From Ophelia neglecta (lineage: Eukaryota): a stretch of 64,000 nt of DNA. The DNA lies in the NCBI GenBank assembly GCA_965285935.1, contig OZ260664.1, positions 72,540,001-72,604,000 on the forward strand, read 5' to 3'. The position numbers are program-made. Each line of letters starts with the position of its first letter. Positions within the stretch are counted from its first letter, which is position 1. Shown one piece after another: positions 18,001 to 40,000 of the stretch.

Positions 18001-21000
18001 TGTCACCCCCAGACAATCAGCTGATTCTGTACCTGTCATCCCACAGACAATCAGCTGATTCTGCACCTGTCACCCCGCGGGCAATTAGCTGATTCTGTAC
18101 CTGTCACCCCGCGGGCAATCAGCTGGTTCAGTGCCAGTCATCCCGCGGGCAATCAGCTAGTTCAGTTCCAGTCATCCCGTGGGCAATCAGCTGGTTCAGT
18201 GCCAGTCATCCCGTGAGCAAACATAAGCTGGTTCTGTACATGTCACCCCACAGACAACCAGCTGTTTCTGTACCTGTCACCCCAAAGACAATCAGCCGAT
18301 TCTGTACCGTTCACCCAACAGACAATCAGCTGGCCCTGTACAAAAACCATTCAGACAAACAGCTGGTTCTGTACCTGTCATCCCATGGTTGTTGTTGTTG
18401 TTTGGGGTTTTACGTGGCTTTCAACACTCATCGGTCATATCGCCACGGTGCCTACTTGTGACAGTGGGCTCAATGCCCTCTTTAGAGTGCTGCCTCACTG
18501 GAGTACCTGTCATCCCATGGACAATCAGCTGATTCTGTTCCTGTCACCCCTCGATGCAATCAGCTGGTTTATGTGGTGTCAATGTGATGGTTCAGTCCTT
18601 TTCTTAAGTATTTATTCACCTTGTAATTAAACTATGTTTAGCTGTGTCCGAACATTTTGTGTAGCCCCCCGTCCCCCAATTACTATCTATCTAGCCCAGG
18701 TGTATGAAATATGATATTGCAATGTTTAGTCAGCTTTCAATAGACAGACAGACTCCCACCTAATTATTCGATTTTTTAAACCATAGGTTATGGACCTTAA
18801 TGTAGATATGTTTCTACCTAGAGGTACTGTATCGAGAGCATGAGGGATAAAACACAAACATCACATGATACCTTTTATAAGATATCATTTTACCACTTCA
18901 GGGCAATTTGGCAGATCTTCATGGAGAGAAGCACATTGTGGGCAATATTTCACAACAGTAAAAAAGGAAATGGCCATAAATAAATTAGCTACAGCCATTA
19001 CATAGTCATTATAGTTTATATAACTGTCATGTATTACGTCTAATGCAGAATATAATTGAGCAGCCAGCTAGATGTACGTTAACTGATTTAGTTAACTAAT
19101 ATATTGGCTTTATTTGGTAACTTAGGCAGGCTTTCATAAACAAATAACAACCAAGATATGACCACAAATAACATACATGTAGTAATGTTTTATTCTGTAC
19201 AAATTTCTATTATAATAATTTAAACAATAAATGAACTTTATTATGAAGCCCATCATTGAAAGATGAAGTGGATTTCATCAAATTATTTCATTCTTAAAAT
19301 AAAGTAATTGATATATACAAGCCTTTATTACAGACTGAGTGTAAAATTTCATTTTCAAACATAATTATATTTCAGCCTCCTACCGTATAGCTTGGATGAA
19401 TTTGCTATGTTAATAAGCCAAGCTGGAAAGCTTGTTCAGCTCTGATAGTCTTGTTAATCTTACCAAATTAATGAAAGCTGAATCACACTACCATGACTGG
19501 CAGACAGCTGGCTAGCCAGCTATAAGATCATTATAACCTGACGAAAACTATGATGAAAGGGGTCACTCATATATGACCAGCAGTTAGCTGTCCAGACAGG
19601 CATAAAGTCTTTATAACCAGACGAAAACTACGCCGAAAACCTAATTTTGTATTTGTACATAAAGCTTTACATTGTGTAAAATATTTATATTTTTGCCTGG
19701 TAGACCTATTTGTTAAGTTTATTATATTGAAATAGAGCAGAAAGAATCATTAGTAGAAGCTTTAATAAAAAAATAAAAACTGTAAAATGTACATAATTGA
19801 ATATAAATACTACTGTTCAGGTGAAGCGTAATATCGTTGCACCAGGTTTAATGGTGGAATGTTGCTACTAAAATAACAAAATAAAAAGGCAAAGGATAAA
19901 TGACAGTAAAAGGAAAAACTGTTTCTATCATTTGGTAGGTTAATTAACTACTCGTGTTATAAACAGACTAAACTAGTTAGCAATGTACAGGACTGTCCCT
20001 AACTAACGGTACTACTTATTACTCTTCTGTTTGTAAATCCTATCTACCACATGGAGATTCACCCACAGGGAAAACTAGACATACATTGCCTATTCCAATC
20101 AAATCTAGGCAACAATAATATGTATCCATAAACATTAAATATTATGCATGATTACCCCAGTGTTCTTAAACAGTACTCAAGAAACAATTCATTAAATGAA
20201 TGTCTAAAAATAAGTCTAATTTCACTTGCTGGCAGTTATGAATTGTATAAAATAGCATATTAAAAAATTTCCAACCAATTGTGACTTGCATAAAATTATG
20301 AACATCATCACCATTTTAACAAGTCATTTAAACAACTGGCTCCAATACTGATGTCCTGGTAATGCAAGGCAACATACTACGAATGGGTTTTTAAATTATT
20401 ACCATAATTGTAAGTAAACCGAGCTATCCTATCTGAGGAGATTGTGTCCATAAAATTCTCATCAATTTGTGAAACAGTTGGGATAGTGTACATGCTTAAA
20501 TTTTGCTGTTTTCAACAAGATAACCCCTTGACCACATACTATAATAATTTGTTGTAAAAATCTGTAGAATTCCACTACATGTACTTGCCTTTATAACAGA
20601 TATCAGGATGGTAAAATCTGGTTTTTATGGCATCTGACCGCCTGTGCTGGGGAGTACATGTACTTTTATGTACAATTGGCATGTATTTTGGTCATGGTAC
20701 TTGTTTTATATGGCATATGGGTGTGGGGAAATCTCAGTTGCAGATCAAGTATGGCCACAAAGCATCTAGCTGCCAAGATTTTGCAATCCCAAGCCTCTTT
20801 TAGCTAGCACTTGACTACCCTGGAAGATGGCTGTGATCAAATAAGGCAGCAGAGTAAAAAATTGTCTGGTATCTAAGGCTTTGGTTGCAAGAGTATCTGG
20901 AGGCCATGGCTTTGGTGGCCATGGCATTTAGGTACTTTAGACTTCACTTTCCAGCTCCATGTCACTAAGATCCTGCAGTGGGGAGGTGGAGAACTTAGTC

Positions 21001-37000: not shown

Positions 37001-40000
37001 CAGGTGGTGTGAGGAGATTTCTATTATCCATTTGTAAAAGGCAACTACACCTCTTTTAAACATCTACTGTGATTAAAAATAAGTATAAATCAGTAAATAA
37101 TTGTCATGATAGACTTGATAATTGTGATATATTTGCTACTAAATAATAAAACATACAGCAAGTTACTCCTTTTTAAAAAAATTCCAAAAAATGTAATAAT
37201 ACCAGTAAAACATTCCCCATTATTCAGTAATCATCAGTTAAAACTCATCCTGACCACCCATGGTTAGTATTCATTAAAAAGTAAGTTGGAACTCTTATGT
37301 CATGAAGGCCAAAGAGTGATGTCATATTCCACATAAACATGATGTCACTTTCTAGCATCCATGACATCAGATGTCCCATAATGTTTTTTAACTGTCTATT
37401 TATATCTTTGCAGCAATTATAGTATAAATCACAAGTCATTAAAAACAAAAAAATGAGATGAACAATCTAATGAACTAAAAAAGTATGTCAAGGTCATGAG
37501 AAGTAAGCTCTAGCAAGCCATCTACCCTGGGAATATACATGTTAAACATAATGGTTCAACATTTCACTGAAACCACATGAGGAATTACTGAATTATAAGT
37601 TCAGGCATTAATTGAGTATATAACTTGCTGGTGGGCACAGATAAGGAGGCCAGAAGTCATGGAACCCTGACCTAACCTGTAGATATAGCTACCCAAGAGA
37701 TATGAAATATCATTTTCACATAAAGTTTTATGCACCTGGAAATGACTGGAACAGACTGAAAACCATTTCTATTTGCCCGTTGACATCATATTTGTGACAT
37801 TGAGGATATCTCTCTTTTTCCCCCGGTGGGACCCTTCATCAGGCCTTCCAGTTAAATAGCATGTATGTGTAAAATTGATAAATAAATCTTTGCCAAGGTA
37901 AAAACTTCATACATTTCCCTTGCCATACATTGCACAGTAGAAGAGTATTATGTCACAATGACATAATAAATCTTTGAAGAGATCCCGTTGTTTTTTCTAA
38001 TTTCGCACATACATGTAGTGAGTGTAGTACTGGCTTCGAGGACAGCATGCTCGTAAAGCATAGAGGTTTTATTAGTGATATGGAGGAGACCTGCAGGACA
38101 GTAGTCTATTGACCTTAGTCTATAGAATGTTATCCCCACTCATGGGGGCTTATTAACCAGTACATGTATAGATATTTTACTCCCTGTGCCTTGCTGCCGA
38201 GATGATGACCTCTAACTAATATCTACCTTTCTGGATCTTTTCTTTTTCCAACAGATGAAGAAGATGAGCAGTCCCACTAAGATCAGGAAAAGTATGGCCA
38301 CAGGAATGCCTATAGCTAACCCTAAATTTACTCCACTGGAGTCTGAAAAAAAAATCTTAGCATTAGTAAAAAAAACATACATGTATAAATTAATCAGACC
38401 ATAACAGCCTCCAGTCAAATGTTGAACCTCCTATATTTCATTTGAGGTGAACAGCAACATATACCCATTAATAAACCTAACAGGGAGACAGCAGTGCAGG
38501 ACAATGTACTAATATTTTATGATAATATCTGTATTCCGACTGTCTACATTTGAAAATCAGGTATTATCCAAAATACAAAAGATAAATTGTTCATTTGTCA
38601 ATTTCATTGGCTACATTATAATATCACCTACCACTTAACATTAATAACATAACATTTTTTGTAATAATTCAACTCTACTCCTTGAAGAGGCTGTGAGTGA
38701 AAAGTTAGCGTCAGGTAATAAATACTTGTATGAGAAATAGTTCTAATATTTTTTATGAGACACAGGATATCAATTATTTGTTTAGGGTGTCAGATTCTTA
38801 CCAGCAGGGGCCACAGTTGTTCCCACCAGCCCATTGTTCTGAGAACCATCCCCAGATGATGGGGAGTCATTCAAGGGCACACCAACAGGTGGTGCTACTG
38901 ATGTTGTGGCTGCCATGGTAACACTGTCTTTTTCTCCCTGTGGCACAAAGTCTCCACCTTGGGATAGAACTGCACCACCAGTAGTGGGATCTGTACTCCT
39001 GGTGGTCAATTTGGGGTTTATTCCTCCTCCATTTACAAGGGGAGCCACCGTTGTATCCATTGGCCCTTCAGCACTCTCCATAGCAACACCACCTCCATCA
39101 GGTGGCTTTTGAGAAGTGGTCGTAGACATTATAACAATCGTGGAATCCTTCCATTATCACATTACCTACTTTTCAAATAATTTCCTTTCTTCTTACAGGA
39201 AAGTTTGATGAAATATTTACATTTCATTTCACATGCTATAAATGAATATCACAGATGCTTTCCTAAAATCACAGCAGGCCTAGACACACTTGGCTGCACT
39301 GCATGGTGTTCCACACTGGATCAGTGATCGAGGTTCTCACATTTAGTATGTGTAACTACCAATTCTATGAAGATTGAGTATTGTATCTTCTTCAAGCACA
39401 TCACATAAAAACATCCACAGGAATCCTATGAACAATGGTCGAATTTATACACAGCCACCATTCGTCACAAGTGGCGGAATGAAGTGTCCACTGCCACTGT
39501 CAGGTCATCATCCAGTCTTTGGTCATCATCCAATAACATACCTGTGCCAAATAGAAAACCAACATCATCATTCATTCTTATCGTTTTCCCATCTGCCCCC
39601 CAGTGAAAGGTATAAATTGATAGTAACACTATCAACATGATGGCATTCGTGCCTAGGCGACAAGCCCCAGCGACTACTGCACAAAGTCACACTTTCTCCT
39701 CATTTAAGGCTTAAATTCATATGATATCAACTATACAGGCTGCTGGTCATAGATCGATGATGCCAGTGTAAAAACACGTTACGAAGACATGAACATAATT
39801 ATAAATCAGTAAGATGGTATGTGCAATTAATATGCCAATTATCCACTTGCCCCTACATGTGTCATGAATTAGCTTTCAAAACTAACACATACAGTATATC
39901 TATATCTATATAATATGGCAATACATGTAATAGGTAAACAAAGAACTGGCAATAGATGTAGACTAGCCATACATTATTGCAAGAAAAAATTTGTAAAGCA

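What the first reader, a model, noticed from the sequence alone, without database searches (positions are those of the whole stretch)
20937..39129. Membrane-anchored triple-SH3 scaffold with a signal-less Thr-rich ectodomain and ESEV tail
Seen: a ~115-aa T/G/P-rich N-terminus with no signal peptide (in-frame upstream stop), one TM followed by KKKRSRK, three SH3 domains, ~900 aa of PxxP-rich sequence and the C-terminus ...ELESEV*. Established: animal SH3x3 + proline-rich adaptors (CIN85/CD2AP) are cytosolic; TM+SH3 proteins are best known in fungi (Fus1, Sho1); E-S-x-V is a class I PDZ ligand as in NMDA receptor subunits. Inference: an unusual type III transmembrane adaptor for junctions, synapses or endocytosis, possibly autoinhibited by its own PxxP motifs.
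Basis: partly seen in the sequence, partly recalled or inferred. Interest (0 to 1): 0.68.

Follow-up and report, generated by a model that had tools for sequence, protein, structure and literature searches.

The report
Predicted membrane-anchored triple-SH3 scaffold gene
An invertebrate-type animal gene appears to encode a long adaptor protein with three SH3 domains and many proline docking sites that, unusually for animals, seems to be fixed in the membrane by its own transmembrane helix; no transcript yet shows that the membrane exons and the SH3 exons are spliced together.

Summary
On the minus strand, 39129-20937, I could build a 12-exon model (4965 nt, 1654 codons) in which every intron is GT..AG and every phase fits. 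It needed three small exons: 26222-26135, 24873-24780 and 21509-21452. It encodes:
- a 115-residue Thr/Gly/Pro-rich N-terminus with no signal-peptide-like stretch;
- one strong hydrophobic helix followed by KKKRSRK;
- three Pfam SH3 domains;
- a 306-residue acidic linker;
- about 960 residues enriched in PxxP motifs;
- the C-terminus ...ELESEV*.

The 877-codon exon has one relative among 1.84 billion representatives: an unnamed 777-aa ORF, E 9.4e-86. The SH3-ligand motifs are the better-conserved part of that alignment.

The link between the membrane exons and the SH3 exons is inferred, not shown. It rests on phase fit, the codon usage of exon 1, the lack of any ATG for exon 3, and the lack of any other coding-like first exon in 15.8 kb.

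The SH3 domains are generic and are not CIN85/CD2AP or p47phox orthologues.

Best reading: a type III membrane-anchored multivalent scaffold, similar in layout to yeast Fus1p. Function and autoinhibition remain untested. Interest is moderate.

The parts
38802..39129 (-). Exon 1: ATG plus 109 codons of Thr/Gly/Pro/Ser-rich, net-acidic sequence (presumed O-glycosylated ectodomain). Donor CTG|GTAAGA, leaves phase 1.
   Evidence: Codon-usage score is +0.458 in this frame against -0.104 and -0.329 in the other two, similar to exons 5 and 10. Only 13 stop-free windows of this length occur in 21,189 nt of non-coding sequence. No hydrophobic N-terminus.
38227..38342 (-). Exon 2: transmembrane helix (about 38325-38248, LGLAIGIPVAILFLILVGLLIFFICW) followed by KKKRSRK (38247-38227). 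Acceptor tttttttttcag, donor AAG|GTAGAT, phase 1 in and 0 out.
   Evidence: KD19 +3.19. Codon score cannot be told from intron (z +0.22). Only sub-threshold Pfam matches to membrane stretches (Psg1 22.2 bits against a cut-off of 30.1).
31822..31933 (-). Exon 3: 37 basic juxtamembrane codons (SDIQKIEKRERNG...). No ATG. Strong acceptor (15 of 18 pyrimidines) and donor AAG|GTAGGT (8 of 9). Phase 0 in, 1 out.
   Evidence: Codon score z +2.05. An in-frame stop lies 9 codons upstream with no ATG between.
30423..30596 (-). Exon 4: SH3 domain 1, on one phase 1-1 exon. The donor is weak (ATG|GTTTGG).
   Evidence: Pfam SH3_2 2.7e-09 and SH3_1 7.5e-09. Best single-domain matches among solved structures are NCK2 (43.6 bits) and CIN85 (43.3 bits).
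28408..29328 (-). Exon 5: 306-codon acidic (net charge -31), Ser-rich linker.
   Evidence: No Pfam family. AlphaFold2 on the single sequence: mean pLDDT 45.7, with 224 of 306 residues below 50.
27956..28143 (-). Exon 6: SH3 domain 2. Phase 1 in, 0 out. Donor GGG|GTAAGT.
   Evidence: Pfam SH3_9 8.3e-13 and SH3_1 4.2e-10. Splice sites.
26135..26222 (-). Exon 7: 88-nt linker exon (KSPVPHRKSVFSQDEVSQEGEFDEDLTGM), needed to put SH3 domain 3 in frame.
   Evidence: Codon score z +3.06; 0.4% of stop-free intron windows score as high.
25079..25233 (-). Exon 8: SH3 domain 3, the most canonical of the three.
   Evidence: Pfam SH3_1 3.3e-15. Solved-structure matches: cortactin 9.6e-13, NCF1, GRB2.
24780..24873 (-). 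Exon 9: 94-nt Pro/Ser/Thr-rich linker exon, needed to put exon 10 in frame.
   Evidence: Codon score z +2.95.
21930..24564 (-). Exon 10: 877 codons, predicted disordered, PxxP-rich, with conserved short motifs. One example is 23308-23225, DKRTPPPLPPKPDPGRLRTRRSKSDPNA.
   Evidence: One relative, P0001, at E 9.4e-86. Seven conserved islands. AlphaFold2 mean pLDDT 36.0, with 816 of 877 residues below 50.
21452..21509 (-). Exon 11: 58-nt exon (SIETGSSPPPEATLVLNTE), needed to reach the ESEV frame.
   Evidence: Codon score z +3.33.
20937..21032 (-). Exon 12: the last 31 codons plus the TAA stop. The C-terminal E-S-E-V (20951-20940) fits the class I PDZ-ligand pattern x-S/T-x-V.
   Evidence: Codon score z +2.84.

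Best explanation
One gene of an invertebrate-type animal genome encodes a protein of about 1654 residues. It is a single-pass membrane protein with no cleavable signal peptide (type III: N-terminus outside, C-terminus in the cytosol).

Outside the cell sits a short, unstructured, probably O-glycosylated Thr/Ser/Pro/Gly-rich stalk. Inside, from the membrane outwards, come:
- a basic juxtamembrane stretch;
- SH3 domain 1;
- a 306-residue acidic disordered linker;
- SH3 domains 2 and 3, about 30 residues apart;
- roughly 960 disordered residues carrying conserved class I and class II SH3-ligand motifs and an RSKSDP site;
- a C-terminal -ESEV.

Inferred mechanism: a membrane-fixed multivalent scaffold. 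The ESEV tail would dock it on a PDZ scaffold. The three SH3 domains would recruit proline-rich partners. The PxxP motifs would be bound by SH3 domains, either of other proteins or of the same protein, within one molecule or between molecules. Phosphorylation beside the best-conserved motif could switch this binding.

Shown: the exons, domains and motifs, their phase compatibility, and conservation of the tail exon in one other genome. Inferred: the exon 2 to exon 3 splice, the topology, glycosylation, all binding, and the cellular role.
For: Gene model: 12 exons, GT..AG at all 11 introns, all phases fit, no internal stop, 4965 nt.

Domains: SH3 domains in exons 4, 6 and 8. A single hydrophobic helix with KD19 +3.19 followed by seven residues of which six are K or R. 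No hydrophobic N-terminus.

Exon 1 is coding. Its frame-specific codon score is +0.458, similar to exons 5 and 10 (+0.388 and +0.367), and its G+C is 0.52 against 0.35 in non-coding sequence.

Exon 3 cannot start translation. It has no ATG, and an in-frame stop lies 9 codons upstream. Its donor phase nevertheless fits the SH3-1 exon.

No rival first exon. Between exon 3 and the end of the upstream same-strand gene (31934-47700) there are 26 candidates running from an ATG to a phase-0 donor. The only three scoring above +3.4 log2-odds are all pieces of exon 1.

No hidden domain exon. No PX or other domain lies in intron 2 (0 of 62 ORFs with E below 0.03). None lies upstream either: of 96 ORFs, only the C-terminal pieces of the neighbouring ASC channel match.

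Selection on the tail. Exon 10 is 46.0% identical over aligned residues to P0001. Five of 6 class I motifs and 3 of 7 class II motifs are kept. Identity is 41 of 71 (58%) inside motif residues against 286 of 806 (35%) outside.

Disorder. Exon 5 and exon 10 are predicted unfolded.

Precedent. Fus1p is a type I transmembrane protein whose 416-residue cytosolic tail carries an SH3 domain and a proline-rich domain (PMC2063912 passages). Multivalent SH3/proline-motif systems are reported to cluster membrane receptors (PMC4238058, title and start of abstract only).
Against: No transcript, EST or annotated orthologue supports the exon 2 to exon 3 junction.

Given fixed splice sites, the phase fit of exon 1 to 2 and of exon 2 to 3 would each arise by chance about one time in three.

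Exon 2 cannot be told from intron by codon usage (z +0.22).

Exon 1 found no relative among proteins of 63-202 residues, so the ectodomain is not shown to be conserved.

Reading on from exon 2 into the intron gives VDIS and then a stop, so exons 1-2 could make a complete small protein on their own.

An in-frame ATG lies 7 codons before exon 4, inside its acceptor region. A transcript starting in intron 3 could therefore make a cytosolic form.

The exon 4 donor is weak (ATG|GTTTGG).

An N-terminal 115-residue domain translocated without a signal peptide is at the long end for type III proteins (my own knowledge).
Confidence: 0.55

Rival explanations
1. Two transcription units, or two isoforms. 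Exons 1-2 make a small (about 150-residue) mucin-like single-pass membrane protein ending ...KKKRSRKVDIS*. The SH3/PxxP adaptor is an ordinary cytosolic protein that starts from an undetected short first exon, or from the ATG just upstream of exon 4.
For: Read-through of the exon 2 donor reaches a stop after 4 codons. An AATAAA lies 154 nt into intron 2, although that is about what chance gives in this A+T-rich intron. An in-frame ATG lies 7 codons before exon 4. The scan could not see first exons shorter than 10 codons. All well-studied animal multi-SH3 adaptors are cytosolic (my own knowledge). Four text searches found no animal transmembrane protein with three SH3 domains (and 44 for Fus1).
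Against: Exon 3 has strong splice sites on both sides, coding-like codon usage (z +2.05; 3.6% of intron windows score as high) and no possible start codon. It therefore needs an upstream coding exon with a phase-0 donor, and exon 2 is the only coding-like candidate in 15.8 kb. The stretch upstream of exon 4 that holds the ATG is a pyrimidine-rich acceptor region.
Confidence: 0.3
2. The same single gene, but a classical type I protein: an undetected upstream exon supplies a cleavable signal peptide.
For: The 115-residue ectodomain is long for insertion without a signal peptide (my own knowledge). About 8.5 kb of unexplained sequence lies upstream of exon 1.
Against: Stops lie 9 and 10 codons upstream of the ATG in frame. 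The only AG between them and the ATG follows a purine-rich stretch. The ATG has A at -3. No coding-like ORF was seen upstream.
Confidence: 0.06
3. The model is an artefact or a decaying pseudogene: exons strung together by eye, with no functional product.
For: No annotated protein in the libraries matches it. The model needed three hand-picked small exons.
Against: An 877-codon exon is open and 46% identical to an open 777-residue ORF in another genome, with motif-specific conservation. Three intact SH3 domains score above Pfam cut-offs. Of the 10 exons short enough to test, 8 beat at least 96% of stop-free intron windows; exon 8 beats about 92%, and exon 2 does not stand out.
Confidence: 0.04

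Closest known systems
CIN85 (SH3KBP1) / CD2AP / Drosophila Cindr adaptors
   Same: Three SH3 domains plus a long proline-rich disordered region. CIN85 and CD2AP SH3 domains are among the better single-domain matches of SH3 domain 1 (43.3 and 40.6 bits). They are multivalent scaffolds.
   Different: Those proteins are cytosolic, have their three SH3 domains close together at the N-terminus, and end in a coiled coil (my own knowledge). Here there is a transmembrane anchor, a 306-residue acidic spacer after SH3 domain 1, no helix longer than 14 residues predicted in the tail, and a PDZ-ligand tail. SH3 domains 2 and 3 match other families best (STS-1/intersectin/OSTF1; cortactin/NCF1/GRB2).
Saccharomyces cerevisiae Fus1p (and Sho1p)
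   Same: An integral membrane protein with cytosolic SH3 and proline-rich parts. Fus1p is single-pass, is O-glycosylated (title of Trueheart & Fink 1989, seen in a reference list), and has a 416-residue cytosolic tail with an SH3 domain and a proline-rich domain (PMC2063912 passages; PMC3817587 passages).
   Different: These are fungal proteins with one SH3 domain. Sho1p has four transmembrane helices. No sequence relationship was found or expected, so the likeness is one of layout only.
p47phox / Tks4 / Tks5 organiser family
   Same: Multi-SH3 scaffolds held at membranes, with PxxP-containing linkers. NCF1 gave the best E-value for SH3 domain 1 (3.5e-17).
   Different: That E-value is the sum of two weaker domain matches (32.8 + 30.7 bits), each below the single-domain NCK2 match (43.6 bits). 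No PX domain was found in any exon, in intron 2 or upstream. Membership is rejected.
Glycophorin C-type and Crumbs/syndecan-type small membrane proteins
   Same: A short glycosylated ectodomain, a single helix, a basic juxtamembrane cluster and a C-terminal PDZ ligand. Glycophorin C also lacks a signal peptide (my own knowledge, not tested here).
   Different: Those have cytosolic tails of tens of residues with no domains. Here about 1500 residues, including three SH3 domains, lie between the basic cluster and the PDZ ligand.

Membership tests
SH3 domain superfamily (Pfam SH3_1 / SH3_2 / SH3_9) | Match to the SH3 profile above the curated gathering score | tested here: met
   Exon 4: SH3_2 37.0 bits (cut-off 21.8). 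Exon 6: SH3_9 48.4 bits (cut-off 30). Exon 8: SH3_1 55.8 bits (cut-off 22.9).
CIN85/CD2AP adaptor family | All three SH3 domains most similar to CIN85/CD2AP SH3 domains | tested here: not met
   Solved-structure searches. SH3 domain 1: NCK2 43.6 bits, with CIN85 close at 43.3. SH3 domain 2: STS-1, intersectin-1, OSTF1. SH3 domain 3: cortactin, NCF1, GRB2, with CD2AP only at 1.8e-08.
CIN85/CD2AP adaptor family | C-terminal coiled coil (a feature recalled from knowledge) | tested here: not met
   The AlphaFold2 model of exon 10 has helices of at most 14 residues, all at low confidence. Exons 11 and 12 are 19 and 31 residues long. No dedicated coiled-coil predictor was run.
p47phox/Tks organiser family | N-terminal PX domain | tested here: not met
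   No PX match in the exon ORFs, in 62 intron-2 ORFs or in 96 upstream ORFs.
Type III (signal-anchor, N-terminus outside) single-pass membrane proteins | No cleavable signal peptide; one transmembrane helix; positive charge on the cytosolic flank | tested here: met
   Hydropathy and charge counts were made exon by exon, with in-frame upstream stops. This is a heuristic. SignalP and DeepTMHMM were not available, and the joined protein was not assembled.
Type III (signal-anchor, N-terminus outside) single-pass membrane proteins | Experimentally shown topology and membrane insertion | not testable with these tools
   Needs protease-protection, glycosylation or epitope-accessibility assays.
Class I PDZ-ligand proteins | Free C-terminus of the form x-[S/T]-x-[V/L/I] | tested here: met
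   The C-terminus reads ...L-E-S-E-V followed by a stop. Binding to a PDZ domain was not tested. Conservation is unknown because P0001 covers exon 10 only.
Fus1p family | Sequence homology to fungal Fus1 | not tested
   No Pfam family other than SH3 matched any exon. No direct comparison with Fus1p was made. The similarity claimed is one of layout only.

The most novel reading that the evidence does not exclude
A lineage-restricted animal protein combines, in one membrane-anchored chain, three SH3 domains and at least eight conserved SH3-ligand motifs. It could therefore cross-link with copies of itself and form two-dimensional condensates at the plasma membrane. A PDZ scaffold binding the ESEV tail would position these condensates. 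Phosphorylation and 14-3-3 binding at the conserved RSKSDP site next to the PPPLPPKP motif would dissolve or trigger them. This would be a one-gene version of the nephrin-Nck-N-WASP type of clustering system, and an animal counterpart of yeast Fus1p that arose independently.
Probability: 0.12. Interest if true: 0.7.

Novelty: new variant of a known kind. Interest (0 to 1): 0.42.

Why it matters
Animal multi-SH3 adaptors are known as soluble proteins that lipid-binding domains or receptors bring to membranes. A version with its own transmembrane helix, glycosylated stalk and PDZ-ligand tail would be a domain combination so far described only in fungi. It would also offer a simple natural test case for how multivalent SH3/proline-motif interactions organise membrane patches.

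If the membrane exons turn out to belong to a separate gene, what remains is an ordinary, lineage-specific, cytosolic SH3 adaptor.

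Tried and rejected
(1) p47phox/Tks origin of SH3 domain 1. NCF1 gave the best E-value (3.5e-17), but the printed alignment shows two summed domain matches of 32.8 and 30.7 bits. No PX domain was found. Rejected.

(2) Full-length orthologues.
- Exon 10 against proteins of 1536-4385 residues: none.
- Exon 10 against 1.84 billion representatives of any length: 1 hit, the unnamed 777-aa ORF P0001.
- Exon 1 against proteins of 63-202 residues: none.
- The length limits of the word-indexed search keep short SH3 exons from reaching full-length proteins, so no SH3-based orthologue search was made.

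(3) Finding the taxon from the neighbouring gene's 535-residue exon: no hit. Rfam and tRNA scans of the whole window: 0 matches each.

(4) ESM Atlas look-alikes. Exon 10: best score 0.84, generic disordered eukaryotic clusters, below the 0.9 lead level. Exon 5: no usable hit.

(5) Complex prediction, SH3 domain 3 (exon 8) with exon 10 residues 410-450: the verdict was no answer (score 0.04 against a mark of 0.34, and the controls were not run). This is evidence neither for nor against binding or autoinhibition.

(6) RIM-BP-like spacing (SH3, about 300 residues, then SH3-SH3). Considered from memory. No FN3 or other Pfam match in exon 5, and no RIM-BP chain among the 60 best solved-structure matches of any of the three SH3 domains. 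Dropped.

(7) Plus-strand ORFs antisense to the gene (four ORFs of 98 to 298 codons): no Pfam family. Taken as chance antisense frames.

(8) Literature.
- 2 papers, neither about such a protein (listing only).
- 20 of 5,372 papers listed. Two membrane-proteome papers were checked for 'SH3' and had 0 occurrences.
- 2 papers. The relevant one names only yeast Fus1p and Sho1p.

Full report
WHAT THE WINDOW IS

The window has no N, G+C about 38.7% and CpG observed/expected 0.54. It carries multi-exon genes with GT..AG introns. On the same strand, the neighbouring region holds ASC-channel, MAM, kringle, CUB and fibronectin type II pieces. I take it for an invertebrate-type animal genome and not for human. 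The species could not be named: searches gave nothing.

CHECKING THE OBSERVATION

Pfam finds SH3 domains above the gathering score in 3 of the 8 ORFs scanned, and nothing significant in the other five.

I worked out the splice sites by hand. The large ORFs alone do not join in frame:
- The SH3-2 exon leaves phase 0, but the SH3-3 exon needs phase 1.
- The SH3-3 exon leaves phase 0, but the large exon needs phase 1.
- The large exon leaves phase 2, but the ESEV exon needs phase 0.

Each gap is closed by a small exon with a good acceptor and a GTAAG/GTAAT donor: 26222-26135 (88 nt), 24873-24780 (94 nt) and 21509-21452 (58 nt).

The resulting 12-exon model has 4965 nt, 1654 codons, no internal stop and GT..AG at all 11 introns.

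Every search, fold and count was made exon by exon. Whole-protein predictors and architecture searches therefore remain to be done.

PROTEIN FEATURES

- Exon 1: 109 residues; T 14%, G 16%, P 11%, S 10%; net charge -6; one N-x-S sequon. No hydrophobic core: the highest 8-residue KD mean in the first 40 residues is 1.0.
- Exon 2: the only strong hydrophobic segment (KD19 +3.19; every other exon is at or below +0.86), followed by KKKRSRK.
- Exon 3: basic (27% K+R).
- Exon 5: acidic (net -31), Ser-rich, no Pfam match. AlphaFold2 gives no fold (mean pLDDT 45.7, single sequence).
- Exon 10: 13% Pro and 13% Ser. PxxP occurs 25 times against 14.1 +/- 3.2 in shuffles (3 of 2000 shuffles reach 25). Class I motifs: 6 against 1.8 (11 of 2000). 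Class II motifs: 7 against 1.8 (5 of 2000). PxxxPR is not enriched (2 against 0.8; 399 of 2000). AlphaFold2 with the two-sequence alignment gives mean pLDDT 36.0 and only four short helices. Shallow alignments make such models weak, but both results fit intrinsic disorder.

RELATIVES

Exon 10 found nothing among proteins of 1536-4385 residues. Against 1.84 billion representatives of any length it found one protein, P0001 (777 aa, E 9.4e-86). P0001 is an unnamed ORF seen on one 28,148-bp contig. It stops two codons after the position of my exon 10 donor, so it looks like the same exon read as a plain ORF in an unannotated related genome.

In the alignment, 327 of 877 residues are identical, which is 46.0% of the aligned residues. 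Conservation is patchy, with seven islands:
- KKRxSVERPxVPPPRPP
- KRxPPPLPPKPDPxRLRxRRSKSDPN
- SDxSFxENEINEILL
- TPPRxxSPVKRAKSP
- PxTRDSGNxSLPxS
- SHLRFFTPxKFVxKYS
- RVISPVPAVGxDGKFVSRP

Five of 6 class I motifs and 3 of 7 class II motifs are kept. Identity is 58% (41 of 71) inside motif residues against 35% (286 of 806) outside. So the tail evolves as a disordered chain under selection on its short docking motifs.

RSKSDP fits the RSxpSxP 14-3-3 pattern. That pattern is recalled from memory, and a single occurrence is not significant as a count (216 of 2000 shuffles).

No annotated full-length orthologue is in the libraries searched. Exon 1 found no relative of 63-202 residues, which is uninformative.

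WHICH SH3 FAMILY

Against solved structures:
- SH3 domain 3 matches cortactin, NCF1 and GRB2.
- SH3 domain 2 matches STS-1, intersectin-1 and OSTF1.
- SH3 domain 1 gave NCF1 (p47phox) at 3.5e-17.

The last result briefly suggested a Tks/p47phox relative whose PX domain had been replaced by a helix. The printed alignment shows that the score is the sum of two domain matches (32.8 + 30.7 bits). Each is weaker than the single-domain NCK2 (43.6 bits) and CIN85 (43.3 bits) matches. I also found no PX piece among 62 ORFs of intron 2 or 96 ORFs upstream. I dropped that idea. The domains are generic SH3 domains.

Among themselves the three domains are 28-40% identical (16 of 58, 20 of 51, 21 of 53). 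SH3-2 plus exon 7 and SH3-3 plus exon 9 form two parallel units: an SH3 exon of phase 1 to 0, then an 88- or 94-nt exon of phase 0 to 1. This suggests an internal duplication, which is my inference.

ARE THE MEMBRANE EXONS PART OF THE SH3 GENE?

This is the crux, and it is not settled.

For one gene:
- Exon 1 has frame-specific codon usage like the large exons (+0.458 against -0.104 and -0.329 in the other two frames). Its G+C is 0.52 against 0.35 in non-coding sequence.
- Exon 3 has strong sites, coding-like usage (z +2.05) and the right phase for the SH3-1 exon. It has no ATG, and an in-frame stop lies 9 codons upstream. It therefore needs an upstream coding exon with a phase-0 donor.
- The upstream same-strand gene ends near 47.7 kb (ASC profile positions 427-454 of 455 at 47720-47965). 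In the 15.8 kb between that point and exon 3, there are 26 candidates running from an ATG to a phase-0 donor. Only pieces of exon 1 score above +3.4.
- The phases of exons 1 to 2 to 3 fit.

Against one gene:
- The two phase fits together would arise by chance about one time in nine.
- Exon 2 cannot be told from intron by codon usage (z +0.22), as expected for a T-rich helix.
- Exon 2 read into the intron ends after VDIS, so a small protein of its own is possible.
- An in-frame ATG lies 7 codons before exon 4.
- First exons shorter than 10 codons were not scanned.

I put the single-gene reading at about 0.55-0.6.

HOW IT MOST LIKELY WORKS (inference)

KKKRSRK on the C-terminal side of the helix, a net-acidic unstructured N-terminus, and the cytosolic nature of SH3 domains and PxxP motifs all point the same way. 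The N-terminus would be outside and the rest inside, which is a type III protein with a mucin-like stalk.

Inside, the protein would be a membrane-fixed multivalent scaffold:
- The ESEV end fits the class I PDZ-ligand pattern.
- The three SH3 domains can take proline-rich partners.
- The eight conserved ligand motifs can be taken by SH3 domains of other proteins or of the protein itself.

The one complex prediction allowed gave no verdict and counts neither way. Multivalent SH3/proline-motif systems are reported to cluster membrane receptors and to form condensates. I saw only titles and the starts of abstracts for this: PMC4238058 and PMC10923291, in the listing.

COMPARISON WITH KNOWN SYSTEMS

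In layout the nearest is yeast Fus1p. It is a type I transmembrane protein with a 416-residue cytosolic tail that carries an SH3 domain and a proline-rich domain (PMC2063912 passages). It is O-glycosylated, according to the title of Trueheart & Fink 1989, which I saw only in that paper's reference list. PMC3817587 (passages) names Fus1p and Sho1p as the examples of SH3 proteins inserted in membranes.

In domain content the nearest are the CIN85/CD2AP adaptors, but two of their defining features were tested and not met.

My text searches found no animal protein with this layout. These searches cover open-access full text only and match exact words, so the absence is weak evidence.

VERDICT

The SH3/PxxP gene is real and under selection. 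Its membrane anchor is the best available model but remains unproven. I rate it a new variant of a known kind, of moderate interest.

Noticed in passing
window 26693-27971 (intron 6; overlaps the last 16 nt of exon 6): A 53-bp minisatellite of 24 copies (84% matches) starts inside the 3' end of the SH3-2 exon and repeats its exon-intron junction. Intron 6 therefore holds 48 copies of GTAAGT (39 of GGTAAGTG), against 5 in the other 11,495 nt of this gene's introns. These are potential decoy 5' splice sites. No effect on splicing is known.
   Followed up: partly
window 47720-63389, minus strand: Pieces of the DEG/ENaC (Pfam ASC) profile lie in order along the strand: positions 17-80 at 63045-63389, a weak 349-391 at about 49.8 kb, 398-434 at 48013-48189, and 427-454 at 47720-47965. 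Between the N- and C-terminal pieces, on the same strand, lie a weak PAN match, two MAM domains, one kringle, one CUB and seven ORFs with fibronectin type II domains. This may be one channel gene with an array of extracellular modules inserted in its extracellular loop, which would be unusual, or it may be a nested gene. The 535-codon exon at 48297-49901 found no homologue.
   Followed up: partly
window 1435-1776, minus strand: An ORF matches the N-terminal domain of pleiotrophin/midkine heparin-binding proteins (PTN_MK_N, E 2.1e-10).
   Followed up: no
window about 15900-18630, plus strand: A long array of overlapping open frames with a reiterated peptide-like unit (...SPHRQSAGSVPVTPQTISWFCTS...), G+C 0.52 and strong negative GC skew. 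It looks like a satellite or tandem repeat. It had no Pfam match in the one ORF scanned.
   Followed up: no
window 30597-30790, minus strand (3' end of intron 3): The SH3-1 reading frame stays open for about 130 codons upstream of the exon 4 acceptor and contains two ATGs, one of them 7 codons before the exon. The translation is Phe/Leu/Cys/Ser-rich, as expected of a pyrimidine-rich intron end. It would allow a cytosolic isoform if a transcript started in intron 3.
   Followed up: partly
window 26222-26135 with 28143-27956, and 24873-24780 with 25233-25079: Two parallel two-exon units: an SH3 exon of phase 1 to 0, followed by an 88- or 94-nt Ser-rich exon of phase 0 to 1. SH3 domains 2 and 3 are 21 of 53 identical. 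This suggests an internal tandem duplication.
   Followed up: partly
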